43,780 bases of DNA from Bdellovibrionota bacterium (GCA_044351695.1 JBILFF010000002.1:1-43780), one strand, 5' to 3'; shown: positions 1 through 25,546, counted from the stretch's first letter. Numbers and translations are program-made. The notes: a model not told the origin generated them from the sequence alone.

Positions 1-97
1 CAGCTTCTGCCATGGGTGTTGCAAGGCTCAGAATATCAGAGCTCATCAGGTTGCTGGATGGAAGAGGACTTGAAACCGAATTCCAAAGAATACTCAT
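1..97 (-). CDS. possible 5' end of another gene downstream of the cyclase (partial, runs off the window)
   Basis: ATG at 97..95 lies 20 nt after the cyclase stop. The frame stays open to the window edge (MSILWNSVSSPLPSSNLMSSDILSLATPMAEA...). Only 32 codons are visible and no family is recognisable. Confidence 0.25.
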   Translation of the reverse strand, partial: MSILWNSVSSPLPSSNLMSSDILSLATPMAEA

Positions 98-117
98 ATA
101 CTAACAGCCTGCCATTC

Positions 118-1674
118 TCAGTGGCGGCTGTCCATTTTGTTTGCAACGAGCGCTTTAAGTTGGTTCTTAGGTAAAACTTCGTAGACATGAACGGTCTGCT
201 GACGACCCTTTAAATGATGGCGGCCTAAGTCGCTGAATCGAAACTCCTCGCTAGCTTGTAGCTCCTCGAGACTTTCTGCACTCACGAGGATTTCTTTGTT
301 GAGTTCTTTGCACAGCGCTTCTAATCGAGCCGCCACGTTTACGGTATCTGAAATGACCGAGCATTGGGTCTGGCTTTCAAAGCCCATGACCCCCAAAATC
401 ATGGGTCCGGTCGATATGCCGATGGCGGCGTGAAGGGGCTGTTCGCCGTGCGGAAATCGAAGGGCGACAAGCGACTCCTGAATCTGGAGCGCACAGCGAA
501 GAGCATCAAGACTTTGATGAGGAAACAGCGCCATCAGTCCATCCCCCATGAATTTATCGACAAAGCCTCGGTGCTTTAAGATGATAGGACCCACAACGGC
601 CATGACTCGATTCAAAAGATGAAAGACCTCCTCGGGGCTCGATTGTTCTGAAAAACGAGTAAACTGACGAAGATCAAAAAACATCACACTACATTGAAGT
701 CGTTGATTTGTTCCCCTCGTCATGAGGCCAATGTCATCAACTCCTAGAAGTTTTAAAAATTCAAAGGGTACAAATTTTTGATAGGCCGCACTCAGAGTCT
801 CGATACGCTCTTTGGCGCCTTGAAGCATGAGATATTTTTGATCCTGATCTTCAAGAGCGCTCGATGCATTCGCAAATGCCAAACGCAGCCGACGAGCTTC
901 GAGGGCAAAAAAGATCATGGCCCCCGCGGTGAGGCTCAGCAGTCCCGCAAAAAGTTCGGCCAGCGGACCCAAGCTTGTGAGTGGTAAAAGAGCAGTGACC
1001 AGTGCGGGTATTCCAAGGATGCTTGCAATCGAGTTTGCAAGGCGCGGTCTGCGATTTAAGTAGCGAATTTTAAATTGATACTCAGGGATGCCTTTCGTTT
1101 CGTTGGGAGTTCTCTCGTGATCCACAGAGGCGCGAGGGAGTCCGTGGTAAGTCGGAAGGCTCATGTAATAACCCACAGCATTCTGCAGGATCGTGGGATA
1201 AAGTTTTGCGAGATCTTCTACTTCTGGAGAGCTCAATTCATCCACCCGCGGAATCATGCGAAACTCGATGAAGCCTTCACGCTCCTCTACCAGCGCTAAG
1301 CGAATGACTTGAGAGTACTGATTTGTGAGCTTCGGAATGTTTTGATAAAGATAGCGGGTCGAAGCAAAATCCCGTGCAAGATAAAAGTTAAAGGTGCCGA
1401 TGGCCTCGGGGGAAAGGCTCTGAAGTCCCGCCTCAAACCAAATGTCAGGATTTCCGGTTTCTCTGATCAAATGCTCCGTGAAGCGCGCCGCGGGCGAAAT
1501 CGAAACCCAATTTCTTTCGTCACTCATGTACTGTAGGGATAGGCCAGCTTTTTGGCAGAGAGCCTCAAGATCAACTTGTGGGTAGGTCTGACGACAATGA
1601 TTAAAAAGAGCGCGGTAAAGCATCGCGCTAATGTGTTGCTTGGTGAATGCGGCTGGTAAACTGCTTTGCTTCAC
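118..1674 (-). CDS. membrane-anchored class III adenylate/guanylate cyclase with an N-terminal cytoplasmic sensor-like domain
   Basis: The C-terminal catalytic domain has motifs FFDLRQFTRFSE, VDKFMGDGLMALF and SDTVNVAARLE. A hydrophobic hairpin (about 2 TM, IPALVTALLPLTSLGPLAELFAGLLSLTAGAMIFFAL) separates it from a roughly 210-aa N-terminal domain. The track start is GTG at 1674; an alternative ATG is at 1623. Confidence 0.85.
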   Translation of the reverse strand: MKQSSLPAAFTKQHISAMLYRALFNHCRQTYPQVDLEALCQKAGLSLQYMSDERNWVSISPAARFTEHLIRETGNPDIWFEAGLQSLSPEAIGTFNFYLARDFASTRYLYQNIPKLTNQYSQVIRLALVEEREGFIEFRMIPRVDELSSPEVEDLAKLYPTILQNAVGYYMSLPTYHGLPRASVDHERTPNETKGIPEYQFKIRYLNRRPRLANSIASILGIPALVTALLPLTSLGPLAELFAGLLSLTAGAMIFFALEARRLRLAFANASSALEDQDQKYLMLQGAKERIETLSAAYQKFVPFEFLKLLGVDDIGLMTRGTNQRLQCSVMFFDLRQFTRFSEQSSPEEVFHLLNRVMAVVGPIILKHRGFVDKFMGDGLMALFPHQSLDALRCALQIQESLVALRFPHGEQPLHAAIGISTGPMILGVMGFESQTQCSVISDTVNVAARLEALCKELNKEILVSAESLEELQASEEFRFSDLGRHHLKGRQQTVHVYEVLPKNQLKALVANKMDSRH

Positions 1675-1780
1675 GCCCTTACGCCAATCCTTAAAACCAT
1701 TTTACCGGCTTTTCGAATTGGCGCTTGGGAGCGCAGCGTCAGAGTCTAAAAAATCAGCACAAACACGTAGAGAACCCTGC

Positions 1781-2527
1781 TTAGCTTGCGTGACGCAAAC
1801 TCGCAGAGGCGGTCGAGTTTTGAGTGGCGCTGGCTTCTTTGGGATTTCGATCAAAACATTTGTGACCAATATCGGCTGCTGCAAAGGCATCTTCAATCAT
1901 TCGGCCGTAAAGAGTGGCTGTGGTTCTCATGCCAAATATAAAATCTGCACAAGACTGATCGTCGATGACCAGGGCCTGAATGTACTCATCATTCAGCCTC
2001 ATATGCTGCACGTCAAATTGTGCATGCTCATCAATAAAGCTGGTCGCGGCTTCAGGGATGCCCATGGCGTGCAGTCGCTCGAGATGAGCTTTGCCCGAAT
2101 GAACAGGCATAGACTCCAAGTAGTAGAGATATCCAAAATAAGCAGCGGGGCTCATATGCATGGCTGCGTGATAAGAAAATCCCATCATCGCTGCCGTGCC
2201 CGGCAGTGGACGCATCGATGCCACGTCATGAATGTCTTCGCCCAAGTTTGCAAGATCAGCGAGAGCAAGTTGGTCATGCCCAACCTCAGCAAGAGCATGG
2301 CCCATCATTTTTTTGATAAGGCTTCGTGCGGCGCCTTGGATTTTCATGGTCACAGCCGCTTGCACTTGCGGGTTATCGCGAGTCTGCAAATAGGTTTGTC
2401 GCATCACGCTCATGTAGTGCTCCACGCTCAGCTGACCCGAAGCGAGTCGCTGAAAGGCGGGCATTTGTAGCATGCGAGTGTTGATTTCTTTCCATTCGGT
2501 TTTGATGATTTCTTTGTGATTTTTCAT
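1781..2527 (-). CDS. heme-oxygenase-like diiron oxidase/oxygenase (iron-containing redox enzyme family)
   Basis: All-helical protein with the ligand pattern ExxH (ALAEVGH), E (YYLESMP) and H-x3-D-x2-H (DEHAQFDVQH). The ATG at 2527 is preceded by AAGGAA 7 nt upstream. The longer track ORF (to 2557) abuts the upstream stop. Confidence 0.75.
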   Translation of the reverse strand: MKNHKEIIKTEWKEINTRMLQMPAFQRLASGQLSVEHYMSVMRQTYLQTRDNPQVQAAVTMKIQGAARSLIKKMMGHALAEVGHDQLALADLANLGEDIHDVASMRPLPGTAAMMGFSYHAAMHMSPAAYFGYLYYLESMPVHSGKAHLERLHAMGIPEAATSFIDEHAQFDVQHMRLNDEYIQALVIDDQSCADFIFGMRTTATLYGRMIEDAFAAADIGHKCFDRNPKEASATQNSTASASLRHAS

Positions 2528-2557
2528 TTTAAGTTCCTTTTTGAGTGTGTTGATCAA

Positions 2558-3268
2558 TTACGAGTACTGAGCGGCCCAAAATACTTGGGACGCTCGAATT
2601 TCTTTTTTTTCCTCTAAGAGAGATTCACAGATGGGGAGAATGGGAGATCGCTGGCTGCGAAGGTGCTCTAAGTCAAAGGGATCAATCACCATGCAATTCG
2701 AGGTCCCATAGTCGAGCCAAGTGGTGGTGGGCTTGTATTGAACGAATCCAACTCGAGCAAAGATACCCACCAAGTGATTACCCGTTGCAATCACCACTCT
2801 TCGGGTCGACCGACGAATGCTTTCGATGCTCATGCGCTCGCAAAGTTGCAAAAACAAGCGGGTTCTTCGGTATCGATGATCGATAATCATTTTAGAGATC
2901 AAAGAGACTCGTCCGGGGTGCAGAGCCTCAAATTTTGAGAATTCATAAAGCTCTTCTTCAGGAAGAACAGTGTCCGAAGAAAAGTTCATGCGAGCCGTGC
3001 CGACCACCTCTCCATCAGCTACCGCCATCAGGATGAGGGCTGTTTTGTCGAGCTGATCGCTGAGCATTTGGTTTTCGTGATCGGCGGTCTTTTGATCGCG
3101 TCCCATTTCTTTGACGTAAATGCGATAGCGAAATCGATAGACCTCTCGTTTTTCAGCTTCGGTCTGGGCGATTCGAATAATCGGGGTCGCCAATGTGGCT
3201 CTTGCAGAAAGTTCTTGGGTCGATGTTTGTGTCTCTGTGTTCATGCTGCTGTTTCCTTTCATGAACAA
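2558..3268 (-). CDS. GNAT-fold N-acyl amino acid synthase-like acyltransferase (FeeM/LuxI-like; an OlsB-type is an alternative)
   Basis: The motif region EKREVYRFRYRIYVKEMG...SDQLD...LILMAVADGEVVGTARM is typical of the Acetyltransf_5 / N-acyl amino acid synthase family. Candidate starts are ATGs at 3268, 3262 or 3244; the last has an AGGA upstream. Confidence 0.65.
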   Translation of the reverse strand: MFMKGNSSMNTETQTSTQELSARATLATPIIRIAQTEAEKREVYRFRYRIYVKEMGRDQKTADHENQMLSDQLDKTALILMAVADGEVVGTARMNFSSDTVLPEEELYEFSKFEALHPGRVSLISKMIIDHRYRRTRLFLQLCERMSIESIRRSTRRVVIATGNHLVGIFARVGFVQYKPTTTWLDYGTSNCMVIDPFDLEHLRSQRSPILPICESLLEEKKEIRASQVFWAAQYS

Positions 3269-3543
3269 AGAATTAGTGCGCTTGGGCGCAAATAGCCCCG
3301 AACTCCCACTGACAATCCCAACCCTCTAAGATGTTGAATTTATTGATTATTTTTACAAATCCCAGAGGGGCGAGAATCGGATCAAATAAAACATGAGTGA
3401 TTTCAAATAGTTATAACTAGGGCTTAGCCCTCGGGAGATCCCATTTGAGCCGATAAACTTTGGGTCGATGAAATCGAGCGATCGGGTTCCCTGGGTCGAT
3501 CTGATGAAATGCTTGGAGTTTTTTGCTGTAGGCTCGCGGTTTT

Positions 3544-5169
3544 TTAAAACAAAAACTCAAAACCGCTGCCCACGCGGTAGAGCCATCGCTGACGATCGTT
3601 TGAGAATTCAAAACTCTCTGCATGCTCGAGACCCAAGTTGCCGCGTGCAATCCATTGATTGCCCAAGGCCCAGCGCCCAGCCAAATCCAGCACAATCGAG
3701 TGCTCATTGGGTTTGTTTTCGGTCACCGTCACGCGTCTAATACCATCGGGTTTGTGAAAAATCTGTTTGTAACGATCGCCCGTTCTTAAGACATAACTCA
3801 CATTCATGCTCAGTTGTTGATGTCGATCTTGGGCCCACTCGGCTTTGAGTCCTACGGAGCGACTATCTCGCCCCCACGCGTCCCCTAAGCTTCCGCCAGA
3901 AAGATTGTAGCCATCTCGCCAGACGCTGTGGCTGTAAAAAACCGCAGGTATCTTAACATATTCGAGTCGCATACTCAGTCGAGGGTCAAAAAAGTCAGGC
4001 AGAAAGAGTCCCGCCTTTACACCCACGACATCTTCGATTGAGTCCAAAAAGTTGCTAAAGCTTTTAAGAATATTTTTACGATTATCTTCGACAACCAGCT
4101 CTGAGTAGAGAGCAAACGGAAACGGCTCAAAAGCTCGAAGATGAAAATCGATATAAGATTTTTGATCGCTAATGTTGCTTCCTCCTCCTCCCGGACTAAA
4201 GTTGAGGGGATGATAAAAAACTTCTCTCAAAAATCTACCCACGCTCATGTCTGGCGCGTTTTTTCCGCCAAAAATCATGCTACGTCCAATGCCGAACTCG
4301 AAAAACCGAGAGGGTGAAAAACTCGCCTTCCATCCAAATGCCCACGAATAATCATTGTGACGATGAGGGCCTAAATTGGCTAAAAGGGCCGAAACCTTGA
4401 CAGGGCCGATGTGCTTAAAAAATCCAGGCAGTCTCCAGGGCCGAGACGAGCTCACTCGAACTTGATCGATGGGTCGAGGATTCAGCGAGGAGGCGAGTCC
4501 TCCGGTATGAGTGGGTCCCCAGTGCCAGTCATCTCGACCAATCAAAATCTCAAAATTTCTCCATGCGAGCGTCACGTTCGCGCGTCTTAAAAAGACCTCA
4601 CCCTGAAAAGCTTTTGCTCCATCGGGCCATTCCATTTCAAATCGCGGCTCCCATTGACCGGCCGAGTATCGTGAAATCTTCCACTGAGCTGAGCTTTGAA
4701 AAGCCAACTGCTCGCCATTAAAAAAGCGGCCTCCAAATTCGTTGCGGTGTAAGGGAGCATAGCTTCCTTTGACATGTCCAAGTCCATTCATACGATAGTC
4801 TCGAGCAGAGTTTGAACTATCAAAAAGAACACTAAGCTTCTCGGGCGCGTGAATGCTTACCGGGCTTTGCGTACAAACGCGGGCTCGTATTCTTTCGTAC
4901 TCCGTCGCCGTCCACGGTCTAAGGGATGAGTCTTCTTCGAGCCGTGGGAGTGCATGAGAAAGCAGTCTGAGGGCTTCTCTTTCATTAAGATTATTCTGAT
5001 GCAAGATGGTGTGGGGCAAGTATCCGCCCAAGAAAAGCTTCTCGATCAAAATATAGATTGGATCCTCGGCAGATAGGGATGGGCTCGCAAAAGGAGCGGA
5101 GCAGTCTTGACTAGCTAACGCCATAGGGCTGAGCAACAATGCGAGTAGCAAAACCCCTCGTTTGATCAT
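3544..5169 (-). CDS. outer-membrane beta-barrel protein, possibly capsule-assembly Wzi-like
   Basis: Sec signal peptide from the ATG at 5169 (MIKRGVLLLALLLSPMALA). The body is Gly/aromatic-rich with alternating beta-strand patterns and a C-terminal ...GSGFEFLF. The N-terminal helical segment plus barrel of about 540 aa resembles Wzi, but this is unverified. Confidence 0.6.
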   Translation of the reverse strand: MIKRGVLLLALLLSPMALASQDCSAPFASPSLSAEDPIYILIEKLFLGGYLPHTILHQNNLNEREALRLLSHALPRLEEDSSLRPWTATEYERIRARVCTQSPVSIHAPEKLSVLFDSSNSARDYRMNGLGHVKGSYAPLHRNEFGGRFFNGEQLAFQSSAQWKISRYSAGQWEPRFEMEWPDGAKAFQGEVFLRRANVTLAWRNFEILIGRDDWHWGPTHTGGLASSLNPRPIDQVRVSSSRPWRLPGFFKHIGPVKVSALLANLGPHRHNDYSWAFGWKASFSPSRFFEFGIGRSMIFGGKNAPDMSVGRFLREVFYHPLNFSPGGGGSNISDQKSYIDFHLRAFEPFPFALYSELVVEDNRKNILKSFSNFLDSIEDVVGVKAGLFLPDFFDPRLSMRLEYVKIPAVFYSHSVWRDGYNLSGGSLGDAWGRDSRSVGLKAEWAQDRHQQLSMNVSYVLRTGDRYKQIFHKPDGIRRVTVTENKPNEHSIVLDLAGRWALGNQWIARGNLGLEHAESFEFSNDRQRWLYRVGSGFEFLF

Positions 5170-5274
5170 AGAGCCACCATCCCTAAAAGTAGGACCTGAG
5201 CACAAGAAATTATTCAGATTGTTTATGAGTCATCAATTTTAAAGAAGCTCGATTTGATTCGTCTTATCTCTTCA

Positions 5275-6681: not shown

Positions 6682-8220
6682 TCAGCCTCCTAACCATCGG
6701 CCTCGATACTTTGGCCATGCAAAAACAAAAGCACAGCCTCCCAGAAGCGGTGAATCCTCAATCCAAATTCTCCCGCCCCTCGATTCGATGATCTTTTTAA
6801 CAATAGAGAGTCCCATTCCAGTGCCCGGATACTGGTCGCGATTGTGAAGTCGTTGAAACATTTTAAAGACCAAATCACGATACTTTGCCTCAATACCGAT
6901 TCCATTATCTTCGACCTTAAAGACATACTCAGCAGCTGACTCTAGGCAGGTAATCTGAAGCAAGGGCTCTTCAAGAGAGCGATATTTGAGAGAGTTATCT
7001 AGAAGATTTTGAAAAACTTGAACCACCTGACTTTCGATTCCCTGAATACAGGGCGGAAGGTTTCGGAGTCTCATTTGAGCTTGGGGTCTCTGATGAGTAA
7101 TTTGGAGTGTCGTAAAAATTTCTCTAAGAATCTTCGCAAGATCAACGACGTTCTCTGGTGTTTTGTCTTGATCGAGTTTTGCAAAACCGAGCAGTTCACT
7201 GATGAGCTCTTGAGCGCGTCTTGATCCACTTAAAGCAAAATCAACATATTCGTGGCTTTCTGAGTCCAGAGAGGCGTGTGATCTCTCGATTAAGAGCTCT
7301 AAAAAATTGGTGACCATTCGTAGGGGCTCTCGAATGTCATGCGCCACGACGTAGGCAAATTGAGCAAGATCCGTATTGGATCTTCCAAGATCGAGCGCAT
7401 GTTGACGAAGCAGCGCCTCTTGATAAATTCGTGTCGAGATATCGACGATTTGGGATACAAAATAAAGAGGCTCTCCTTTTTCGTCTCTAATGCTTGCGCT
7501 TGCTAAAATCACATGAATGATCCGACCGCTTTTATGAGTGTATCGCTTTTCAGTGCGGTAAACAGAAATTTTACCCTCTCGTAGCTGCCGAAGGGCTTCC
7601 ACCCCTTTGCCGCGATCTTCTTCGAGAGTGAGATCAAAAAAAGTCATTTTTTCAAGCTCCTCCGCAGAGTATCCAAAGAGCTCGCAAGCGGCACTATTCA
7701 CCGCTGTAAAATGACCACCCAGCGAAACGGTGCATTGGGCAATGGGTGAGCTCTCAAAGGCAGCACGAAATTTTTCTTCGCTTTCTCTTAGAGAGCGTTC
7801 CATCCAGCGCTGCTCAGTGATATCTCGACCCACCCCCTGAAACTCCAGAATCTGATTCTCAGAATCGCGGATGGCATAACCTTCCCAAAGAGTCAGTCGC
7901 CATTCCCCGCTAAACCAGGAGCGATGTTCCACAAAGCCTCGATGGGGAGGAAATTTGAGTGATTCGACGAACTTTCGCACATGAGCTAAGTCCTCAGGGT
8001 GAACAAAGGGGTCGAAGCTCGTGCCAATAAGTTGTTGAGCACTTCGACCGAGTTTTCGGCAGTAGGCTTGATTAACAAAAGTAAAGCGGCCGCTTGAATC
8101 AATTCGGATAACGAGATCTTTGAGGGACTCAATAATGGCTTCATACCGCTGTTCGGTGCGCCTTAGCCGCTCGGCTGGATCTGAAAACTCTGAGCTGTTT
8201 GAGAGCGAGTGTCCCTGCAT
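6682..8220 (-). CDS. cytoplasmic PAS-PAS sensor histidine kinase
   Basis: Two PAS-like segments, H-box VVAHDIREPL, N-box QNLLDNSLKY, G1 EDNGIGI and G2 GTGMGLSIV. No TM segment is present. Confidence 0.9.
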   Translation of the reverse strand: MQGHSLSNSSEFSDPAERLRRTEQRYEAIIESLKDLVIRIDSSGRFTFVNQAYCRKLGRSAQQLIGTSFDPFVHPEDLAHVRKFVESLKFPPHRGFVEHRSWFSGEWRLTLWEGYAIRDSENQILEFQGVGRDITEQRWMERSLRESEEKFRAAFESSPIAQCTVSLGGHFTAVNSAACELFGYSAEELEKMTFFDLTLEEDRGKGVEALRQLREGKISVYRTEKRYTHKSGRIIHVILASASIRDEKGEPLYFVSQIVDISTRIYQEALLRQHALDLGRSNTDLAQFAYVVAHDIREPLRMVTNFLELLIERSHASLDSESHEYVDFALSGSRRAQELISELLGFAKLDQDKTPENVVDLAKILREIFTTLQITHQRPQAQMRLRNLPPCIQGIESQVVQVFQNLLDNSLKYRSLEEPLLQITCLESAAEYVFKVEDNGIGIEAKYRDLVFKMFQRLHNRDQYPGTGMGLSIVKKIIESRGGRIWIEDSPLLGGCAFVFAWPKYRGRWLGG

Positions 8221-9629: not shown

Positions 9630-11054
9630 ATGCGAGTTTTGAGCGCCCTCTTTTTATTTGCTTCAGGCGTCTTTTTTTTCGTGGGCGGAGCTTTTGTCTC
9701 GGCTGCCTCCGAAGATCATCTCAATCAAGAGAGACTCAGGCATCCTTTTTTTAAAGAAGATCGAGTCTCGTATCATCTCTTGAGAGGTCGGCTTGGAGTT
9801 AATCTTGAAAATGATTCTACGGGCTATTTTTTGGGGCGAAAGCCGTCAGGTGGGCAGGGGCGAATAAAAATGATAGAGCCTCAAGAAAAATTAATGCGCG
9901 GGGGGATTTGGATCGAAGTTGTCGATAAGCCCGGTAGCGCATTTTATTTTCGTTATGATGAGGCGCTTCCTGCGTTTAGCGTGCTGGGACCCGTTCGATT
10001 TTATCACACTGCCCAGTTTTTGGATGACGGAAAGCGGGCAGAAACTTTTCAGCTTCGTCTTGTGAGGGAGCTTAATTTTTCGGAATTGTTGTTGGATTTA
10101 GACGAGATTCCCAACATTCAAATGCTCGTCGAGGAGTTGCACAAAAAATCTCTCTTAGATCAAGAGGACTATCTTCAAGTGAATATGGCGCCGCGGGGCG
10201 AGGGCCTCGATCGACCACACTTGTATTTAAAAACTCGCAGTCATCGAGAGCTGCCAAAGTTTAGGGGAATCTGGCCGCCTGATAAAATGGAGGATCGAAT
10301 CAAAAATGATCCCCTAAAGATTAAAGGCTATTGGCTCGAGAATTCCGATAAGCCCGGTGTTTTAATTTTTTATCCGCTGGATGAGCCATTGCCAGAACCA
10401 GAGGCGGAGCACTACGAAATTGCTATTTATGATCGAGATAGTTTTGCGCTCCCTTTGTTTCGGCTGAGAACAGAGTCCTACCCCAAAGCGGCAACGCTGC
10501 GCTCTCTAGAGAGCTTGATTCGCTCTTCGCAGAAGCGAGGCAAGACGGCTCGTTTGCCCCCTTCGGCGGAGCGAGTGGGGTTTGAGCTGCGGCCTCTCAA
10601 AAAAACTGACGAGAGAGCTTTTGCAAAATTTTCTCAGGGTGATCGCTCGCTCACTTACCATCTGCCGGCTGACCGATTGATTCAGATTCAACAGGCGGGG
10701 CGTGAGCATGAAACCGACTGGGATTCCTATTTGGGGGATGGATACTGGGTGTCTTTGCCTGAAGTCGACGATCGATTTCATTGGTTTAAGTTAGATGATG
10801 AATTCAAATTACCTTTAGAGGCTAAAGTAGAAGTGTTTCGCTTTCTTGTCCCTCGAGTCGATCGATGGAGGGGCAAACTTTCTGATCTCAAATCAAAAAT
10901 CGATGCGGCTCGGGAGGTGTCAAAGCAGACGGGCGCCTTTACTCTCCGAGAACTTCTGGCCGCCGTACCCGAAGCTCAAACATGTACGGATTTAATCTTT
11001 CAGATTCCAAAGATTTTTGGCTCCAAGAAACCACCTGACGGAATGTATCCCTAA
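9630..11054 (+). CDS. exported protein of unknown function built from three roughly 140-aa internal repeats
   Basis: Signal peptide MRVLSALFLFASGVFFFVGGAFVSAAS. Repeat cores are GIWIEVVDKPGSAFYFRYDEALP (aa 92), GYWLENSDKPGVLIFYPLDEPLP (aa 233) and GYWVSLPEVDDRFHWFKLDDEFKLP (aa 371). Confidence 0.6.
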   Translation: MRVLSALFLFASGVFFFVGGAFVSAASEDHLNQERLRHPFFKEDRVSYHLLRGRLGVNLENDSTGYFLGRKPSGGQGRIKMIEPQEKLMRGGIWIEVVDKPGSAFYFRYDEALPAFSVLGPVRFYHTAQFLDDGKRAETFQLRLVRELNFSELLLDLDEIPNIQMLVEELHKKSLLDQEDYLQVNMAPRGEGLDRPHLYLKTRSHRELPKFRGIWPPDKMEDRIKNDPLKIKGYWLENSDKPGVLIFYPLDEPLPEPEAEHYEIAIYDRDSFALPLFRLRTESYPKAATLRSLESLIRSSQKRGKTARLPPSAERVGFELRPLKKTDERAFAKFSQGDRSLTYHLPADRLIQIQQAGREHETDWDSYLGDGYWVSLPEVDDRFHWFKLDDEFKLPLEAKVEVFRFLVPRVDRWRGKLSDLKSKIDAAREVSKQTGAFTLRELLAAVPEAQTCTDLIFQIPKIFGSKKPPDGMYP

Positions 11055-12877
11055 CTTTTCGAGAGAAGCCGCGCTAACTTTCCATCGCTTTGAAGCTCTT
11101 CTTGGAGGATCTCCGTGGCTGCTTTGACAGCGTCATTAAAGAGATAGGGGGCGTGATGGACTCCGGGGTTGCGTATTCGCTCCACGATTTCTTTGTCTTT
11201 CAGTCGTCGATAAAGGTGTTGTGCCGCTGCATCGAGCAGTAAGTTAAAGCTAGCCACCTCAGGACTGATGTCGTTGCTCGAATTTTCTTGAAGAAAACTG
11301 AGCAATCCTGGGATCGGCAGCCAGCGTTGCCAATCGCTTGCTCGATAAGGGGGTAGATCTCGCATGCGCGCCCTCAGGGGAATGGCAAAGTTTCGTGCGA
11401 TGGTCGCTACAACCCAAGCGACTTGAGCTTGCCGCCGGCGATTAACTTCGTATCCGTCCTGTATAAGAAATCCAAGCAGGGCTGTGAGGGCCGCATTTGA
11501 AAGATTGGCTTCGTGAGCTTTTACTGGCTCTACACCAAAAACCAAAGGCACGGCTTCTGGACCAAGCAAACCACTCGGCGAAAAAATTTTTTGCCCATAC
11601 TTGATTTGAGTAGAGTCATGAAATTGTTTCCAAAGTTGGATTTCCTCGGTGAGTAGGGGTTGAAATCTCGGGTCTTTTATTCCATGGCGAACACAAGTTC
11701 TCACCAAGCCCGAGCAGTACTGACTTAGCGGATCATCTCTTTCGTCTCCATTGAATCTTGAATCGTAACGAATAAAAGTATTTTTGGCGGCTTCAGCCTC
11801 GATGAGATCCAGAATCGGCGTGATTCCGTCATCCAAAATCCTCATGTCCTTCAATGAAAGATCTTTCCAGTCTGTAAAATCAGCAAGAGTTTTCTCCCAA
11901 TCTACAAATTCAATGTAAGCATACTTGTCTGCCAACAAGTGCATGGTTCCATGATGTCGACGAATCTGCGTGCCGCTTTCAATATAAGACTCAGGGCGGA
12001 CGAACTCCCCACCAGAGAGATCTAGTTCCCCCGAGGGAGTGTATTGCGTTCGGGCGATATGCGGAAATCTTCGTCTAAACTCTGCGGCAGACTTTACCCG
12101 ATAAAGGAGTGTGGCATGAGCAAACACGGAATCTGCAAGAAAACCCTCGCCGCCGGGCACGGTGGCTATGAGAGATGACACTGCTCGAATGTTAGGATTC
12201 GATCTCGTCAGAGCAGCGAGCGTGTCGGGGAGTTCAGCCTCGACGATCGGATAGCCTCTCTTATCTTTCATCGAGAAACTAGGAATCAAATCTCGATTGT
12301 AAAAAACGATAGGCTCTCCTCGGTCGTGAGGAAAACCCCGATAACCAAAAATACTACCGTCTCGGATTTTTGGGACGATCACGGTCTGATAAAATAGAGA
12401 CTCCGCAATGGCCATGTGAATCACTCTGCGAAGACTCGCAATCGTTGTTTTATCGTCGAGGCTCAAGAGACCTTTTGCGTGCCATATTCGAAGATGCTTT
12501 GAAAAATGGAGTGACGCCAAATACAGATTTTCTGCAACAAGAGCCGGAAAGACGCCGGGATTGTTTTCACTGAAGCCATCGTAAACAGAGTAACCAAAAG
12601 AGGGGCGATCATTTCTTGCTTTTCTACGGAGCCGCTGGGCGAACTTTGGCCGATCTGGAGTGGCTATCGGATTGGCCACTTGAAGAACGCTGAGATCGTC
12701 ATACATTCTCACGAGTTGCTCAAAGCAATTCGACTTTTCTAAGCTCGGATCTTTTAAAAAGCTCAAGATTCGCTCGGACTGCAGAAGATAAGGATTGTCG
12801 TGCGATAAGCCGATCTCAGGTTGAGCTAGTACAAGAATCGCCGAGATAAAAAGCCACGTGCGGCCTTGTCTAAACAT
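11051..12877 (-). CDS. exported protein of unknown function; possible permuted papain-like (YiiX/C92-like) core
   Basis: Signal peptide MFRQGRTWLFISAILVLAQP. The segment RRHHGTMHLL...YIEF...IRYDSRFNGDERDDPLSQYCSGLV resembles the His...YD..F...YCSE.V pattern of YaeF/YiiX amidases. This is recalled from memory and unverified. Confidence 0.55.
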   Translation of the reverse strand: MFRQGRTWLFISAILVLAQPEIGLSHDNPYLLQSERILSFLKDPSLEKSNCFEQLVRMYDDLSVLQVANPIATPDRPKFAQRLRRKARNDRPSFGYSVYDGFSENNPGVFPALVAENLYLASLHFSKHLRIWHAKGLLSLDDKTTIASLRRVIHMAIAESLFYQTVIVPKIRDGSIFGYRGFPHDRGEPIVFYNRDLIPSFSMKDKRGYPIVEAELPDTLAALTRSNPNIRAVSSLIATVPGGEGFLADSVFAHATLLYRVKSAAEFRRRFPHIARTQYTPSGELDLSGGEFVRPESYIESGTQIRRHHGTMHLLADKYAYIEFVDWEKTLADFTDWKDLSLKDMRILDDGITPILDLIEAEAAKNTFIRYDSRFNGDERDDPLSQYCSGLVRTCVRHGIKDPRFQPLLTEEIQLWKQFHDSTQIKYGQKIFSPSGLLGPEAVPLVFGVEPVKAHEANLSNAALTALLGFLIQDGYEVNRRRQAQVAWVVATIARNFAIPLRARMRDLPPYRASDWQRWLPIPGLLSFLQENSSNDISPEVASFNLLLDAAAQHLYRRLKDKEIVERIRNPGVHHAPYLFNDAVKAATEILQEELQSDGKLARLLSKS

Positions 12878-17057: not shown

Positions 17058-17573
17058 ATGCAAGAATATGCAATGGGATCCAAAGAGGCTTTCAGAATCT
17101 TGTTTGATCGATACGAGACTAAGCTTCGGCATTTTTTATCGCTGCGCATGAGTGGCGGGCTTTGGTCGGAGCAAGAAGATGTTTTTCAAGTGGTCTGGCT
17201 AAAGATTCATCAAGCTCGAAAACAGTTCAATCCTCAGAAACGCTTCTCCGCATGGTTTTTTGCGATCGCTTGGAACAGTCTTTATGATCGCTACCGCAAA
17301 TTGAACTTTGATGAAGACGAGGGCGATTGGGAGGTGACTGAGGCCTCGAGTCTGGGTTCAGACGCTCTACTGAGTCTTAAGCAAGATCTGCTTCAGCTCT
17401 CTAAGCTGCTAAAAGAGCTGAGCCCACGACAGCGTGAGGTTCTACTGCTGAGCGACTTTGAGGAGCTAAGTGCAGAGGAGATTTCAAAGATTTTAGAAAT
17501 TTCATCGGGAGCTGTGCGACAGGATTTGTTTAGAGCGAGACAGATTTTGCGAAGAAAGTGGAAGAATTCATGA
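17058..17573 (+). CDS. ECF (group IV) sigma-70 factor
   Basis: Region 2 (AFRILFDRYETKLRHFL...VFQVVWLKIHQ) and region 4 (LSPRQREVLLLSDFEELSAEEISKILEISSGAVRQDLFRARQ). The ATG at 17058 has GAGG upstream. The GTG at 17016 is the alternative, and would retain the SDEVL segment. Confidence 0.85.
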   Translation: MQEYAMGSKEAFRILFDRYETKLRHFLSLRMSGGLWSEQEDVFQVVWLKIHQARKQFNPQKRFSAWFFAIAWNSLYDRYRKLNFDEDEGDWEVTEASSLGSDALLSLKQDLLQLSKLLKELSPRQREVLLLSDFEELSAEEISKILEISSGAVRQDLFRARQILRRKWKNS

Positions 17574-19012
17574 GTGATGTGCGAGCGAGTATTTTAAGGG
17601 CTGTCGAAGAGGAGCGAAGCTCAAAGCTGCGACCAGGTTTAACGGGTCTTGGGGCTTTAGCACTTGGCCTGGCGTTTCTCTTTTTCGTGGTCGGCCGGGT
17701 CTGGCAAGATCGGCCTGATTCGTTTCTTATGGTTTCGATTCTTTGGTCTGTCGCTTTTGGGGCGGGAGTCTTTTTGTTTTTTCAACCTCAAGCTCGCATG
17801 GAGGTTCGGGGATTTTGGTCAAGGTTGGTTTTGTCAAAAATTTTGATCGTTTCAGTTTTGGGATGCTCGACTCAGTTGGTTCTCTGTCCGCATTTTGCTT
17901 TTCTTGATCACCAACTCCCAGGCGTCCATTTTTTCTCTTACATCGTCGAGTTTTACACTCTCATTGCAGGCCACACGGGCTGTTTGCTTTTGTGTGGGGC
18001 GAGTTTTGGTGCCATCACAGCGTCTCTGGGTTTTGTTTGGATTCGTCGATCTCTTTCTTTAACTCACTGGCGAGCCATCGCCTGGGCAGCACTGTGTATG
18101 GCCGTCGTCTCTCTTCCCGTGGGAGTTTGGCAGTTTTCACAGTCACACCACGGAGCAGGCTCGATATTTTGGGGAATCGGCTTAGTCGGGGGAATTCTTT
18201 TGAGTGCGGTTTTGGTTTTTGCTTTTTTTCGCAAGCACGACGTGTCGATGGCGGTGCCTGGCGACCTGCGTGATTTCAATTTGCTTTATCGAACCCATCT
18301 GTCTCACCAGGAGGGAGTAGAGAGCCCCCATTTTTTTGATCAAGGAGAGAGTCATCTGTATTCAGACTGGCTTTTACCCTCGTGTATTCAAACGGGTTGG
18401 GACTATGGGGATGAGTACTACTTAGCGGGCTTTCCCGATCTGTCGGAGGTCCTAGAGCGAGAGGCTTCGAACGTTCGAGTTCATGCGGATATCTGGCAAG
18501 AATATCGAAGAAACGGACTCACTCCCTTGGGGCGGTTGCTGCGCAAGCATTTGCGGGGGCGAGTTTTTATAGACCTGGGCTCTGGGCGAATCGAGAAATC
18601 AGTGGTGCCTCGACTGCTTGCAGAGGAGTTTGAGGCTGCATTTTATCTTGGAGTCGACCAAAATCTGAAGACGTCCGAGATTCGCCGAGCGGAGTTTCAG
18701 TTAGATGAAAGTCGGACCGGTTTTAGAAGCTTGTTTTTCAAGGATTCTGCCCTTTCATTTTTGAAGTCTATGAAGCCGGGTATTGCTGGGGTGGTTCACA
18801 TTGCCGGCTTTGAGTTGAAGAATTCGGCCTCTGCAGATTCGCGGCTCGAGGTGCTTGAAATTTTGCAAGAGCTCCATCGCATTCTAAGGCCGGGATCTGT
18901 TTTAATGTTGGGGGCGGCGAGTCATGATTTTCAGCCTCAGACAAGCCGTTGGAAGAATGATTTTAAGGTCATTGGGCAAAATCGTTATTATCGCCTTTTT
19001 AGGAGGCGATGA
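17570..19012 (+). CDS. polytopic membrane protein (NrsF/DUF1109-like putative anti-sigma module) fused to a class I SAM-methyltransferase-like domain
   Basis: Its ATG overlaps the sigma stop (ATGA). The first 225 aa or so carry 6-7 TM helices. The C-terminal 255 aa or so carry VFIDLGSGRIEKS (motif I-like), YLGVDQN (post-I acidic) and LRPGSVLMLG. Confidence 0.6.
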   Translation: MSDVRASILRAVEEERSSKLRPGLTGLGALALGLAFLFFVVGRVWQDRPDSFLMVSILWSVAFGAGVFLFFQPQARMEVRGFWSRLVLSKILIVSVLGCSTQLVLCPHFAFLDHQLPGVHFFSYIVEFYTLIAGHTGCLLLCGASFGAITASLGFVWIRRSLSLTHWRAIAWAALCMAVVSLPVGVWQFSQSHHGAGSIFWGIGLVGGILLSAVLVFAFFRKHDVSMAVPGDLRDFNLLYRTHLSHQEGVESPHFFDQGESHLYSDWLLPSCIQTGWDYGDEYYLAGFPDLSEVLEREASNVRVHADIWQEYRRNGLTPLGRLLRKHLRGRVFIDLGSGRIEKSVVPRLLAEEFEAAFYLGVDQNLKTSEIRRAEFQLDESRTGFRSLFFKDSALSFLKSMKPGIAGVVHIAGFELKNSASADSRLEVLEILQELHRILRPGSVLMLGAASHDFQPQTSRWKNDFKVIGQNRYYRLFRRR

Positions 19013-19035
19013 CGTAGCTCGGCGCACAGATTACA

Positions 19036-19770
19036 ATGAGAGCCATGAGCCGTAGTGTGAGGAGTTTAATCCTGTGCTTTGTGGGCATAAGCTTTTTAAG
19101 TGGTAGTTTGGCGGCACAACCCAAGACGAACAAAAAATTTCCAATCTTAGGGTTTCATCAAAACGGTAAAGTCGTCATTCCTTCCTTTCAAGACAAGATT
19201 TCGGAATCCATGCCGCTTGAGTTATTCGGCTGGGTGATGATTCCTCGCGAGGTGGAGCCCACTCCAGCGGATCTTAAATCGATGGGACCTTTCAAATTAG
19301 TTTACGAATCTAAACTCAGTCGAAAGGACTTGAGCACAGTTTCGAGCGATAAATGGTTAGTGCCGCAGGGATCACGCTCGGCACTCCTGTATCGATTTGA
19401 ACGCATGCCCAGCCCAATCGAAGCATCGGGTGCTCCACTGGTGATCTTTGAAAAAGACTTAAACTTGAATCCTGATTATCAGAAGCGCTCAGTCGCCTAC
19501 ACAGACTCTGAGTATGTTGAGGGCTTAGAACGATTTCAATCGGTCGAGCGTAGTTATACGGTTCTCTGGCCCATTTTGACTTTCGAGAGCGAGGTGTTTC
19601 GACTCATGGAATTACCGAATGGTGCCGGCCATTCGCTTTTCTTGAATCACTTGAAGGGGCTTGAATGTCAAAAAACGATTCCGGTCGACTTTTACAATCG
19701 TTCTAAAAATCAAGAGGCGGCGGACTTTGAGATGACGGCCGCGGTTTGTGGGGATCTCGAGTTTCAGTAA
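19036..19770 (+). CDS. exported protein, function unknown
   Basis: Signal peptide MSRSVRSLILCFVGISFLSGSLAAQP. It starts 23 nt downstream of the preceding gene on the same strand. Confidence 0.6.
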   Translation: MRAMSRSVRSLILCFVGISFLSGSLAAQPKTNKKFPILGFHQNGKVVIPSFQDKISESMPLELFGWVMIPREVEPTPADLKSMGPFKLVYESKLSRKDLSTVSSDKWLVPQGSRSALLYRFERMPSPIEASGAPLVIFEKDLNLNPDYQKRSVAYTDSEYVEGLERFQSVERSYTVLWPILTFESEVFRLMELPNGAGHSLFLNHLKGLECQKTIPVDFYNRSKNQEAADFEMTAAVCGDLEFQ

Positions 19771-19787: not shown

Positions 19788-20876
19788 CTAAGAAAAGTAG
19801 CGCATCAACAAAAAGACTCGGCTCATGATTCGTTCAAAAAAACTAAGCTCCGATAGATGCGGAAGCTCAAGCTTTCGAGACTCCTGAAGTTCTTCTAAAA
19901 ATCGTGTCTCAAGAAGTGCGCGGTTTTTGAGGTCAAAGATTTCGACTTCGATTTCGCGATCATGCAAAAAGCTTCGATGATTAAAGTTGATGCTCCCAAT
20001 AAAGGCGCGATCATCGACTTGAAGAATTTTTTGATGCGAGAAGGAGGGTAGATATTCAAAGACCTGAATTCCGGCTTTCATCAAATATCGAAAGTAGTAG
20101 TAGCTGAGCCATCGAATAAAAAAGATGTCGTTTCGTCGTGGAACGATCACTCGAATATCAATACCTCGTCGTGCTTGAGCGATCAAAATATCGAGAACGG
20201 GTCGAATAGGAATAAAGTAGGGATTCTGAATCCAAATTCTCTTTTGAGCTTCTTGGAGGCGTTTTTTAAGAATTCGATTGAATTGCAAGGAGCTGCCGGG
20301 CCCCTGGTTAATCAAGCAACGGGTCCATCGCCGACGCCACCAGTGAAACGGGCGTCGGCGATACAAATCGCGCATGGCCTCCGAGAGAATAGGTGTATCT
20401 GCGTCTACGAATTGCACCGCGATATCGCGCCAAGCATCTTTGCCATAAATTTCAGGCGAGTTGCGGTCGTCTATATTAAAGCTACCGACGATGGCCTCTT
20501 GGCCATCGCGAAGAATAATTTTTCGATGATTGCGGCGGTTTAGAATACTGATGACTCGGGTGATAGAGAGTCGCCCTTTAAAGACGCGGTTAATGGCTTT
20601 ATTGACTCGGTTAAAGAGTCTGAAGCTTATACTCGCCATTTTTAATCGACTGCCATAGCGAGTCTCAAATTCTGGCGAGCCAATCGCATCAATGAGTATT
20701 TCAATCTGAACGCCGCGCTTGGCCGCCTTGAGAAGTTCTTCCACAATCAAATCGCCAAACTCTCCCGGCGAAAAAATATAAAACTCGATCTGGAGCTTCG
20801 TTTGAGCAAGAGAGATTTGCTTAAGAAGTCCCCTTTGAAAATCAGCTTGCGTGGTAAGTAGGAGTTCAGAGGACAT
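19788..20876 (-). CDS. phospholipase D family protein (two HKD motifs; cardiolipin synthase/PLD-like, soluble)
   Basis: HKD motif 1 is HRKIILRDGQEAIVGSFNIDD. HKD motif 2 is HQKILQVDDRAFIGSINFNHRS. No TM helices. Confidence 0.85.
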   Translation of the reverse strand: MSSELLLTTQADFQRGLLKQISLAQTKLQIEFYIFSPGEFGDLIVEELLKAAKRGVQIEILIDAIGSPEFETRYGSRLKMASISFRLFNRVNKAINRVFKGRLSITRVISILNRRNHRKIILRDGQEAIVGSFNIDDRNSPEIYGKDAWRDIAVQFVDADTPILSEAMRDLYRRRPFHWWRRRWTRCLINQGPGSSLQFNRILKKRLQEAQKRIWIQNPYFIPIRPVLDILIAQARRGIDIRVIVPRRNDIFFIRWLSYYYFRYLMKAGIQVFEYLPSFSHQKILQVDDRAFIGSINFNHRSFLHDREIEVEIFDLKNRALLETRFLEELQESRKLELPHLSELSFFERIMSRVFLLMRYFS

Positions 20877-21006
20877 TAAGTCATTTTAGCTCTAGAGGCT
20901 CACTGAGCGATATGAATCTTTCTGCGCGCGAGCTGCTGATTTTGTTTCCCAAACTATCAGTCATTTGTTTAGCGTGGTCTAAAGCCCTGCCTAGTACACT
21001 AAAAGT

Positions 21007-25475: not shown

Positions 25476-25546
25476 TAAATTAAACTCACTTTGTTTAGGC
25501 CAAACATTTCTAGCTACCAATCTCATGGCTAATTGTCCATTTTCTC

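What the first reader, a model, noticed from the sequence alone, without database searches (positions are those of the whole stretch)
118..3268. Same-strand cassette: N-acyl amino acid synthase-like GNAT, diiron heme-oxygenase-like oxidase, receptor-type class III cyclase
Seen in the sequence: three minus-strand genes follow a 275-nt intergenic region. The gaps are 30 nt (GNAT stop to oxidase ATG) and about 106 nt (oxidase stop to cyclase start). A possible fourth gene starts 20 nt after the cyclase. Established knowledge: FeeM-type N-acyl amino acid synthases share the LuxI fold and make lipid signals or antibiotics from acyl-ACP. Heme-oxygenase-like diiron oxidases (UndA, BesC, SznF and others) oxidatively decarboxylate, desaturate or N-oxygenate fatty-acid or amino-acid substrates. 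Inference: the trio reads as make an N-acyl amino acid, oxidatively tailor it, and couple its perception to cAMP/cGMP output. That would be a quorum-sensing-like synthase-modifier-receptor module. I am not aware of a described system with this architecture.
Basis: partly seen in the sequence, partly recalled or inferred. Interest (0 to 1): 0.7.

Follow-up and report, generated by a model that had tools for sequence, protein, structure and literature searches.

The report
Conserved acyltransferase–diiron oxidase–cyclase gene trio
Three neighbouring genes (a lipid-amino-acid synthase-like enzyme, an iron-dependent oxidase and a membrane-anchored cAMP-making sensor) stay together across distantly related uncultured bacteria even when their order changes, which points to an undescribed small-molecule pathway tied to cAMP signalling whose product and direction of signalling are still unknown.

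Summary
Three minus-strand genes encode a FeeM-family GNAT (2558-3244), a heme-oxygenase-like diiron oxidase (HDO) with a complete 3-His/3-carboxylate ligand set (1781-2527), and a class III cyclase (118-1674).

The gaps are 30 nt and 106 nt, and a fourth ORF starts 20 nt after the cyclase.

The GNAT and HDO form a conserved two-gene unit. They were adjacent in 48 of 52 fetched loci, from Alpha- and Gammaproteobacteria, Planctomycetota and Bacteriovoracia-like MAGs. They occur in either order and are fused into one protein at least once (L036), probably twice (L020).

The cyclase carries a roughly 200-aa cytoplasmic N-terminal sensor domain with no Pfam family of its own, only a weak PF12625 resemblance. 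Cyclases with this domain lie next to the pair in about 11 distinct loci of one lineage, in five different arrangements. Four of the five nearest cyclase clusters that could be checked sit beside a pair.

The link between the three genes is well supported. The "signal made, modified, then sensed" reading is only one option. The sensor is cytoplasmic, not a surface receptor. Related FeeM enzymes are fused to cNMP-binding or PilZ domains, which suggests the reverse flow. Pho-box-like repeats upstream allow a membrane-aminolipid reading. I found no description of this system in the searchable literature.

The parts
3245..3543 (-). Intergenic region upstream of the GNAT. It holds four elements. 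(1) A conserved AT-rich box, AAAAATAATCAATAAATTCAACATCTTA (3354-3327). (2) Phased direct repeats, TGTCAG-N5-GTTCG (3314-3299); relatives carry 2-3 copies of (T)GTCAG at a 10-bp period. (3) A palindrome, TGCGCCCAAGCGC (3290-3278). (4) An RBS, GAAAGGAA (3260-3253).
   Evidence: Alignment of the upstream regions of 10 loci. A regex scan finds the repeat upstream of the GNAT in the cyclase-linked loci and not in the proteobacterial ones. The palindrome occurs only twice in the window (a pattern chosen post hoc) and is not conserved in L001 or L002.
2558..3244 (-). FeeM-family GNAT, a predicted N-acyl amino acid synthase-like acyltransferase (228 aa).
   Evidence: Pfam FeeM 2.1e-12 and Acetyltransf_5 7.1e-10. 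OlsB and exosortase-acyltransferase NCBIfam models score far below their cutoffs. There is a weak PDB hit to an AHL synthase, E=0.014. Orthologues lie next to the HDO in 48 of 52 loci.
1781..2527 (-). Heme-oxygenase-like diiron oxidase (HDO, 248 aa). Predicted ligands are E81, H84, E138, H168, D172 and H175.
   Evidence: Pfam PF14518 8.4e-17. Best PDB sequence hits are 3dde at 2.7e-16, then MboA and CADD. The AF2 model has pLDDT 81. Foldseek matches are 3dde, CADD, TenA homologues, UndA, BesC, HrmI and RohS. The ligand columns are conserved in 28-33 of 33 homologues.
1675..1780 (-). HDO-cyclase spacer of 106 nt. It holds the second copy of the palindrome, TGCGCTCCCAAGCGC (1735-1721). No terminator-like site was found.
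1045..1674 (-). Cyclase N-terminal cytoplasmic sensor domain (about aa 1-210). It is a helical bundle followed by hairpin, long helix, hairpin.
   Evidence: AF2 pLDDT is about 90 over this domain. An exhaustive search found 250 clusters at E<=0.001, with the domain at the N-terminus in nearly all of the 150 listed. Carriers are cyclases (53 of 65), GAF proteins, histidine kinases, GGDEF proteins and SpoIIE. The PF12625 match is weak, in 12 of 30 members and below the cutoff.
895..1041 (-). Two-helix membrane hairpin (aa 212-260). It is flanked by RRPR on one side and ARRLR on the other, so both ends are predicted cytoplasmic.
   Evidence: Hydropathy scan and AF2 helices.
193..696 (-). Class III nucleotidyl cyclase catalytic domain (aa 327-494). 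It has D334, K374, D378, S439, N446 and R450, the canonical adenylate-cyclase set.
   Evidence: Pfam, alignment to bPAC, and residue checks.
1..97 (-). Start of a fourth ORF, 20 nt after the cyclase stop. It is cut by the window end and its identity is unknown.

Best explanation
The GNAT and the HDO are one biosynthetic unit. The FeeM-type enzyme N-acylates an amino acid or amine from an activated fatty acyl donor. The diiron oxidase then modifies that product oxidatively, or modifies its amino-acid precursor. The result is a lipid-like N-acyl amide.

In this lineage the unit is functionally tied to a membrane-anchored adenylate cyclase. I think it most likely that the cyclase's cytoplasmic, membrane-proximal N-terminal sensor domain binds this lipid or a derivative and sets cAMP output. 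That would be an autocrine or quorum-like circuit with an intracellular or membrane-face receptor.

Shown here:
- the domain identities, the intact metal ligands and the intact cyclase catalytic residues;
- conservation of the GNAT-HDO pair, and the fusion proteins;
- adjacency of the cyclase to the pair persisting through rearrangements.

Inferred:
- the substrate class;
- the order of the two enzymatic steps;
- that the sensor domain's ligand is the pathway product;
- that the nucleotide made is cAMP.
For: **The pair**
- A GNAT lies next to the HDO in 48 of 52 fetched loci, across Alpha- and Gammaproteobacteria, Planctomycetota and Bacteriovoracia-like MAGs, in both gene orders.
- L036 encodes a single 440-aa FeeM::HDO protein. 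L020 probably does too.
- The three close exceptions (L025, L026, L056) belong to one sub-lineage. In L025 and L026 ligand E81 is replaced by Lys.
- Neighbours elsewhere are lipid-related or redox-related: FA_desaturase in 7 loci, M20 peptidase, KAS III, amidohydrolase and flavodoxin.

**The cyclase link**
- A cyclase with the same N-domain lies next to the pair in about 11 distinct loci, in five arrangements: co-directional downstream; convergent; convergent with HDO-GNAT order; upstream of the fusion; and divergent from the HDO with a PilZ::FeeM.
- HDO identity among these loci falls to about 38%, and they form two deep groups in a rough tree.
- From the cyclase side, 4 of the 5 nearest clusters that could be checked lie beside a pair.
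- The N-domain is a modular input domain of signalling proteins. It sits right before the membrane hairpin, a good position for a lipid ligand.
Against: - No experiment exists and no product is known.
- The pair occurs widely without any such cyclase (L009-L031), so the cyclase is a lineage-specific addition.
- One N-domain protein (P0025, histidine kinase-REC-cyclase) is not next to a pair.
- FeeM relatives fused to cNMP-binding or PilZ domains suggest that second messengers act on the synthase, not the reverse.
- The purine-specifying Lys is replaced by G, Q, N or S in several orthologous cyclases, so the output nucleotide is uncertain.
- Much of the lineage may be closely related, so part of the synteny could be inherited, not selected.
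- The taxonomy of the window is not established. Only L011 (Bacteriovoracia) and L012 ('Deltaproteobacteria CG11') carry names.
Confidence: 0.4

Rival explanations
1. Reverse flow. The cyclase senses some other cue through its N-domain. The cAMP it makes then switches on the GNAT-HDO pathway, either transcriptionally through a CRP-like factor or allosterically in relatives whose synthase carries a nucleotide-binding domain.
For: Several FeeM homologues of the window GNAT are fused to cNMP_binding PF00027. In L042 the FeeM enzyme beside the HDO and the N-domain cyclase is fused to a PilZ domain.
Against: The window GNAT (228 aa) has no nucleotide-binding domain. No cNMP-binding or CRP-like protein was found among about 35 window ORFs scanned. 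The cNMP-binding fusions (L033, L034) have no HDO neighbour and are only about 33% identical. PilZ binds c-di-GMP, not cAMP. The conserved upstream motif is a direct repeat, not a CRP-type palindrome.
Confidence: 0.2
2. Membrane aminolipid remodelling. The pair makes and hydroxylates or desaturates a phosphorus-free lipoamino acid for the envelope, in the way OlsB works with the OlsC/D/E hydroxylases. Expression would be driven by an OmpR/PhoB-type response regulator, for example under phosphate limitation. The cyclase would monitor membrane state or be only loosely related.
For: Upstream of the GNAT, in the cyclase-linked loci, are 2-3 direct repeats of (C)TGTCAG at a 10-bp period. These resemble the Pho box CTGTCAT direct repeats; that resemblance is from my own knowledge and is a lead, not a test. 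Neighbours in other phyla include FA_desaturase, KAS III and M20 or amidohydrolase enzymes. There are weak OlsB-model hits.
Against: OlsB models score 19-32 bits against cutoffs of 320-350. No OlsA or PlsC-type second acyltransferase lies beside the pair in the window or the loci inspected. The repeat period is 10 bp, not the 11 bp of the Pho box. No pho-regulon gene was available to compare sites. This reading does not explain why a dedicated sensor cyclase tracks the pair through rearrangements.
Confidence: 0.2
3. A secreted secondary metabolite, such as an antibiotic, surfactant or predation factor, with no signalling role. The cyclase adjacency would be synteny inherited within one lineage.
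For: FeeM-type enzymes were first found as antibiotic-producing eDNA clones (own knowledge). MatE and MFS exporters lie near the pair in some loci.
Against: Adjacency survives at least five different rearrangements and deep divergence of the HDO and GNAT. No other flanking gene is conserved among the cyclase-linked loci.
Confidence: 0.12
4. Chance neighbours, with no functional relation among the three genes.
For: The promoter and terminator scan is at chance level, so an operon is not demonstrated.
Against: There are fusion proteins, pair conservation across phyla, and repeated cyclase adjacency in different orientations.
Confidence: 0.03

Closest known systems
FeeM / N-acyl amino acid synthases (Pfam PF21926; Brady and Clardy eDNA NAS enzymes), with OlsB and LuxI as wider relatives
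   Same: GNAT/LuxI-like fold family. The Pfam FeeM model is passed. The expected chemistry is N-acylation of an amino acid from an acyl carrier.
   Different: Only about 33% identity or less to anything outside its own orthologue group. It is not an OlsB equivalog or the exosortase-associated acyltransferase by NCBIfam thresholds. It is invariably partnered with, and sometimes fused to, an HDO, which I did not find described.
Heme-oxygenase-like diiron oxidases (UndA, BesC, CADD, SznF, HrmI, RohS, AetD); the closest structure is 3DDE (Sden_3740, function unknown)
   Same: The same fold and the same E-x2-H...E...H-x3-D-x2-H ligand pattern.
   Different: Sequence identity to characterised members is 12-18%. 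The closest solved relative has no known function. The substrate is presumably an N-acyl amino acid or its precursor, which is not a described HDO substrate class as far as the searches show.
Synthase-receptor signalling pairs encoded side by side (LuxI/LuxR, CqsA/CqsS, RpfF/RpfC)
   Same: A small-molecule synthase gene is kept next to a sensor gene through evolution.
   Different: The output is a class III cyclase, not a transcription factor or histidine kinase. The sensor domain is cytoplasmic and of an uncharacterised family. Autoinduction is not shown, and the direction of control is unknown.
Sensor-domain class III cyclases (bPAC/OaPAC BLUF-cyclases, soluble guanylate cyclase H-NOX-cyclase, CyaB MASE2)
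   Same: The architecture is an N-terminal sensor, a coiled-coil transducer and a class III catalytic domain. The best PDB sequence hits are bPAC, and the best fold hits are full-length sGC beta.
   Different: The sensor is neither BLUF nor a heme H-NOX. It has no YxSxR motif, and hhalign probability against an H-NOX is 3.8%. A two-helix membrane hairpin is inserted between the sensor and the coiled coil.

Membership tests
FeeM / N-acyl amino acid synthase (PF21926) | Matches the family profile above the curated gathering score | tested here: met
   47.6 bits against a cutoff of 27, E=2.1e-12, residues 42-182.
FeeM / N-acyl amino acid synthase (PF21926) | Makes long-chain N-acyl amino acids from acyl-ACP | not testable with these tools
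   Needs expression and LC-MS.
OlsB ornithine-lipid N-acyltransferase (NF052554/NF052555) | Equivalog model score above the cutoff | tested here: not met
   32 bits against 350 and 19 bits against 320, and only residues 31-82 align.
PEP-CTERM/exosortase-associated acyltransferase (TIGR03694) | Model score above the cutoff | tested here: not met
   30.5 bits against 111.95.
LuxI-type AHL synthase | Significant sequence similarity to solved AHL synthases | tested here: inconclusive
   The only PDB hit is TofI (3p2f), E=0.014 over 64 residues.
Heme-oxygenase-like diiron oxidase (PF14518 Haem_oxygenas_2) | Profile match above the gathering score, and the HO-like helical fold | tested here: met
   62 bits against 28.9. 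AF2 pLDDT 81. Foldseek TM 0.70-0.72 to 3dde, CADD and UndA.
Heme-oxygenase-like diiron oxidase (PF14518 Haem_oxygenas_2) | Three His plus three carboxylate metal ligands on the core helices | tested here: met
   E81, H84, E138, H168, D172 and H175 are invariant in the 6 close orthologues. Each is conserved in 30-33 of 33 wider homologues.
Heme-oxygenase-like diiron oxidase (PF14518 Haem_oxygenas_2) | Binds two Fe and activates O2 | not testable with these tools
   Needs metal analysis and an activity assay.
CADD-type pABA synthase (TIGR04305) | Subfamily model above the cutoff | tested here: not met
   26.1 bits against 200.
Class III adenylate/guanylate cyclase (PF00211) | Profile match, plus two metal Asp residues and the transition-state Asn and Arg | tested here: met
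   74.7 bits against 21.9. D334, D378, N446 and R450 are present.
Class III adenylate/guanylate cyclase (PF00211) | Adenine specificity (Lys plus Asp, Thr or Ser pair) | tested here: inconclusive
   The window protein has K374 and S439, as in bPAC (K and T). Orthologues carry G, Q, N or S at the Lys position. No assay has been done.
AraC-type ligand-binding domain PF12625 (Arabinose_bd), for the cyclase N-domain | Profile match above the gathering score | tested here: not met
   19.8-21.4 bits against 27.6, over the first 60 positions only. 12 of 30 family members give weak hits, best 5e-5. This counts as remote resemblance only.
H-NOX heme sensor domain, for the cyclase N-domain | Proximal His and the YxSxR heme-propionate motif, or significant profile similarity | tested here: not met
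   No PF07700 hit. The family motif is GYYxAxP, not YxSxR. Only the predicted topology and the full-length sGC-beta Foldseek hits are suggestive.
Quorum-sensing synthase-receptor module | Synthase and sensor genes are co-conserved neighbours | tested here: met
   About 11 distinct loci in five arrangements.
Quorum-sensing synthase-receptor module | The product accumulates outside the cell, is bound by the sensor, and changes its output | not testable with these tools
   Needs biochemistry and genetics.

The most novel reading that the evidence does not exclude
This could be a new kind of bacterial chemical signalling circuit. An oxidatively tailored N-acyl amino acid, made by a FeeM-HDO pair or fusion, would be read by a previously uncharacterised cytoplasmic lipid-sensor domain sitting on an adenylate cyclase. 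Cell-to-cell or membrane-state information would then be converted directly into cAMP in Bdellovibrionota-like bacteria. The widespread FeeM-HDO pair would separately define a new HDO reaction class acting on lipoamino acids.
Probability: 0.25. Interest if true: 0.85.

Novelty: new variant of a known kind. Interest (0 to 1): 0.65.

Why it matters
**For enzymology.** HDO enzymes are a fast-growing source of unusual oxidative chemistry, including alkene, alkyne, nitrile, N-N and N-O bond formation. This clade is always partnered with a FeeM-type acyltransferase and sometimes fused to it. It spans several phyla and its nearest solved structure (3DDE) has no known function. That makes it a clear target for discovering a new reaction and a new class of lipoamino-acid metabolites.

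**For signalling.** A sensor domain with no family of its own sits at the N-terminus of hundreds of cyclase, histidine kinase and GGDEF protein clusters. Its persistent linkage to this enzyme pair gives the first testable guess at a ligand. If the circuit is real, it would link lipid-like signals to cAMP in a group that includes predatory bacteria.

Tried and rejected
- **N-domain word-index search.** The protein search with the N-domain found nothing, not even the protein itself. The exhaustive representative search replaced it.
- **Metagenome scan from the cyclase side.** Alignments A6 and A7 had no stretch conserved enough to search with. I used the HDO alignment instead.
- **Promoter and terminator scan of 1-3700.** Counts were at or below shuffle expectation, so this is no evidence for or against an operon.
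- **RNA genes.** Rfam and tRNA scans of the window found nothing.
- **Palindrome.** TGCGC(N0-2)CCAAGCGC lies upstream of both the GNAT and the cyclase and occurs only twice in the window. The pattern was chosen after seeing the two sites, and it is absent from L001 and L002. I did not build on it.
- **H-NOX idea for the N-domain.** The topology and the sGC-beta fold hits are suggestive. The sequence profile test failed and the heme motifs are absent. I kept it as a lead only.
- **PDB profile search with the N-domain.** No meaningful hit.
- **Sigma-54, CRP and IHF readings of the upstream motifs.** I checked these by eye. There is no sigma-54 -24/-12 spacing and no CRP palindrome. The AT-rich box is only IHF-like.
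- **Literature.** I found no paper combining N-acyl amino acid synthase or FeeM with heme-oxygenase-like or diiron enzymes, or with adenylate cyclase. Nothing relevant came up for Bdellovibrio or for 3DDE.
- **Window taxonomy.** It could not be established.


Full report
**1. Observation**

The region holds three minus-strand ORFs.

- **GNAT.** The stop-to-start ORF is 2558-3268. The likely start is the ATG at 3244 (228 aa). It lies behind the RBS GAAAGGAA, which is conserved in related loci, and it matches the catalogued protein P0001.
- **HDO.** It runs from ATG 2527 to the stop at 1781 (248 aa).
- **Cyclase.** It runs from GTG 1674 to the stop at 118 (518 aa). A gene caller used M18 (P0018, 501 aa). 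The nearly invariant TKQH motif of the domain family lies upstream of M18, so I keep the GTG at 1674.

The fourth ORF shows only 32 aa before the window ends. It does not resemble the MgsA-like gene that follows the cyclase in L001.

Pfam places all three above their gathering scores: FeeM plus Acetyltransf_5, Haem_oxygenas_2, and Guanylate_cyc. GC content is the same as the surroundings. The window is ordinary chromosome, with RecA, Ffh, TrmD, NadE and a GidA-like gene.

**2. The two enzymes**

*The GNAT.*
- It is not an OlsB equivalog: 32 bits against a cutoff of 350.
- It is not the exosortase-associated acyltransferase: 30.5 bits against 112.
- Its only PDB sequence hit is a weak match to the AHL synthase TofI.

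*The HDO.*
- Its best PDB match is 3DDE, a structural-genomics protein of unknown function (2.7e-16). MboA and CADD match weakly.
- An AF2 model (pLDDT 81) matches 3DDE, CADD, TenA homologues, UndA, BesC, HrmI and RohS.
- The ligand pattern is E81-x2-H84, E138, H168-x3-D172-x2-H175. These residues are invariant in the close orthologues. Each is conserved in 30-33 of 33 wider homologues.
- The exceptions are informative. The extra HDO paralogue in L001 has lost four ligands. L025 and L026 have Lys in place of E81, and they are among the few loci with no adjacent GNAT.

**3. The pair is a conserved unit**

I started from HDO homologues and looked at their contigs. I then scanned one genome per species and metagenome contigs, and searched every locus with the window proteins.

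- A GNAT homologue lies directly beside the HDO in 48 of 52 fetched loci, roughly 35 of them non-redundant.
- The named MAGs include Allosphingosinicella, Rhodospirillales, Parvularculaceae, Marinicaulis, Pseudomonadales, Planctomycetota, Bacteriovoracia and 'Deltaproteobacteria CG11'.
- Both gene orders occur.
- In L036 the two are one 440-aa protein, with FeeM at residues 16-162 and Haem_oxygenas_2 at 237-402.
- L020 has a single 484-aa ORF that matches both.

Other neighbours differ by lineage:
- a membrane fatty-acid desaturase follows the pair in seven Pseudomonadales and other Pseudomonadota MAGs;
- an M20 peptidase follows it in two alphaproteobacterial loci;
- KAS III precedes it in L021, and an amidohydrolase is nearby in L029;
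- a flavodoxin follows a more distant pair in L035.

These neighbours fit an acyl-chain-bearing product that is oxidised, possibly hydrolysed, and needs electrons.

**4. The cyclase**

*Catalytic domain.* It has the full canonical set: D334, K374, D378, S439, N446 and R450. This is the Lys plus Ser/Thr pattern of adenylate cyclases such as bPAC. Several orthologues carry G, Q, N or S at the Lys position, so nucleotide specificity across the family is uncertain.

*Architecture.* AF2 (pLDDT 85) and hydropathy give this layout:
- an N-terminal domain of about 200 aa at pLDDT about 90, built as a helical bundle, then hairpin, long helix, hairpin;
- a two-helix membrane hairpin (aa 212-260) flanked by Arg-rich segments on both sides;
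- a long coiled coil;
- the catalytic domain.

The sensor and catalytic domains are therefore both cytoplasmic, and there is no periplasmic receptor domain.

*The N-domain family.*
- An exhaustive search with the N-domain found 250 clusters at E<=0.001, with the domain at the N-terminus in nearly all of the 150 listed.
- Of 65 carriers, 53 have a cyclase domain. Others have GAF, HisKA/HATPase, REC, GGDEF or SpoIIE domains.
- It is a modular input domain with no Pfam family of its own. 12 of 30 members give sub-threshold hits to PF12625, and nothing in the PDB matches by sequence.
- The best Foldseek hits for the full-length model are full-length sGC beta subunits (H-NOX-PAS-coiled coil-cyclase), and the predicted topology resembles H-NOX.
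This is a lead only.

**5. The cyclase-pair linkage**

A cyclase with this N-domain lies next to the pair in the window and in about ten further distinct loci. Five arrangements occur:
- **(a)** GNAT-HDO-cyclase, co-directional: the window, L001 (which has an extra degenerate HDO) and L002-L005.
- **(b)** GNAT-HDO with a convergent cyclase, often overlapping at the 3' ends: L006-L008 (only the cyclase C-terminus is on the contig), L011, L037, L038/L045 and L046.
- **(c)** HDO-GNAT with a convergent cyclase: L012.
- **(d)** Cyclase followed by the FeeM::HDO fusion: L036.
- **(e)** PilZ::FeeM convergent with the HDO, and an N-domain-GAF-cyclase divergent from the HDO: L042.

HDO identity among these loci falls to about 38%. 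In a rough NJ tree they form two deep groups. No other flanking gene is shared among them.

From the cyclase side, I looked up six of the nearest N-domain clusters.
- Four lie beside a pair: P0019, P0021, P0022 and P0034.
- One does not: P0025, a histidine kinase-REC-cyclase.
- P0026 could not be judged because its contig is too short.

The proteobacterial and planctomycete loci have no such cyclase within the flanks. The linkage is therefore real but lineage-specific. Adjacency is conserved. Co-transcription is not.

**6. Direction of control and rivals**

Two observations argue for caution.
- Several of the window GNAT's remote homologues are fused to a cNMP-binding domain. The FeeM enzyme in the L042 trio is fused to PilZ. 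Nucleotide second messengers may therefore act on the synthase.
- The region upstream of the GNAT has a conserved architecture in the cyclase-linked loci: an AT-rich box, then two or three (C)TGTCAG direct repeats at a 10-bp period, then the RBS.

Such phased direct repeats are typical of OmpR/PhoB-type response regulators and resemble the Pho box. That statement is from my own knowledge and the period differs by one base pair. It would fit a phosphate-limitation aminolipid like the OlsB system.

Against the aminolipid reading:
- no OlsA-like second acyltransferase accompanies the pair;
- the OlsB models fail.

I rank the readings as follows.

| Reading | Confidence |
|---|---|
| Product sensed by the cyclase | 0.40 |
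| Cyclase controls the pathway | 0.20 |
| Membrane aminolipid remodelling | 0.20 |
| Secreted metabolite with inherited synteny | 0.12 |
| Chance neighbours | 0.03 |

**7. Comparison with known systems, and novelty**

Each component belongs to a known superfamily. What I did not find in full-text searches is:
- the obligate FeeM-HDO partnership, including the fusions;
- its coupling to a class III cyclase through an uncharacterised cytoplasmic sensor domain.

The searchable corpus excludes many subscription papers, so absence of a hit is not proof of novelty.

I rate this a new variant of a known kind. It is a synthase-sensor neighbourhood with new chemistry and a new sensor and output.

**8. 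Verdict**

- The comparative evidence for a functional three-gene module is strong.
- The chemistry and the signalling logic remain inferred and can be tested with the experiments listed under next steps.

Noticed in passing
window 3299-3354 (minus strand); also L002 ~730-775, L006 ~620-690, L037 ~3540-3585, L038 ~7960-8010: There is a conserved non-coding architecture upstream of the GNAT. An AT-rich box (AAAAnAATnAATAAnTTCAA..ACTTA, IHF-like) is followed by 2-3 direct repeats of (C)TGTCAG at a 10-bp period. It is present in the cyclase-linked loci and absent upstream of the pair in the proteobacterial loci. It resembles a Pho box or another OmpR-family operator.
   Followed up: partly
window 3278-3290 and 1721-1735 (minus strand): The palindrome TGCGC(N0-2)CCAAGCGC occurs only twice in 43.8 kb, once upstream of the GNAT and once upstream of the cyclase. 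The pattern was chosen post hoc, and it is not conserved in L001 or L002.
   Followed up: partly
L001 6541-7209: A second HDO paralogue lies between the GNAT and the intact HDO. It has lost four of the six metal ligands (T, Q, V and S at positions 81, 84, 138 and 172), so it may be a non-catalytic partner.
   Followed up: partly
L006 17-358 and 704-1459: Two FeeM-type GNAT genes sit in tandem upstream of one HDO, which suggests diversification of the acyl or amino-acid specificity.
   Followed up: no
L033 6001-10199; L034 6001-7095; L042 2764-4209: FeeM-family enzymes are fused to second-messenger receptor domains: cNMP_binding in L033 and L034, and PilZ in L042. In L033 the fusion is followed by a B12-binding-domain protein and a ketoacyl synthase.
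   Followed up: partly
L006 2181-2233; L037 2048-2055; L038 6527-6530: Where the cyclase is convergent with the HDO, the two coding regions overlap at their 3' ends by 4-53 nt. That could allow convergent-transcription interference.
   Followed up: no
L036 2418-3446 and 8136-11578: The cyclase and FeeM::HDO fusion locus is embedded among heme-biosynthesis genes (ferrochelatase, ALAD, GlutR, porphobilinogen deaminase). This is seen in this one locus only.
   Followed up: no
window 33820-36912 (minus strand): A 1030-aa ORF combines an Asparaginase_2 domain (aa 51-302) with a Peptidase_M3 domain (aa 567-1019), which looks like an unusual fusion.
   Followed up: no
window 19788-21777: A PLD-like phospholipase D/cardiolipin-synthase-type gene lies divergent from an APP1-like phosphatidate phosphatase gene. 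This could be a membrane-lipid remodelling pair about 17 kb from the trio.
   Followed up: no
window 3544-5205 (minus strand): A Wzi-like capsule-assembly outer-membrane protein is encoded directly upstream of the trio. It is not conserved beside the trio in L001 or other loci.
   Followed up: partly
window 9630-12877, 17558-19770, 24615-27625: Several long ORFs (474, 608, 484, 244, 332 and 692 aa) have no Pfam match at E<=1e-4.
   Followed up: no
window 1631-2470 (plus strand): A 279-aa ORF lies antisense to the HDO gene. It is most likely a shadow ORF of the HDO coding frame and not a gene.
   Followed up: no
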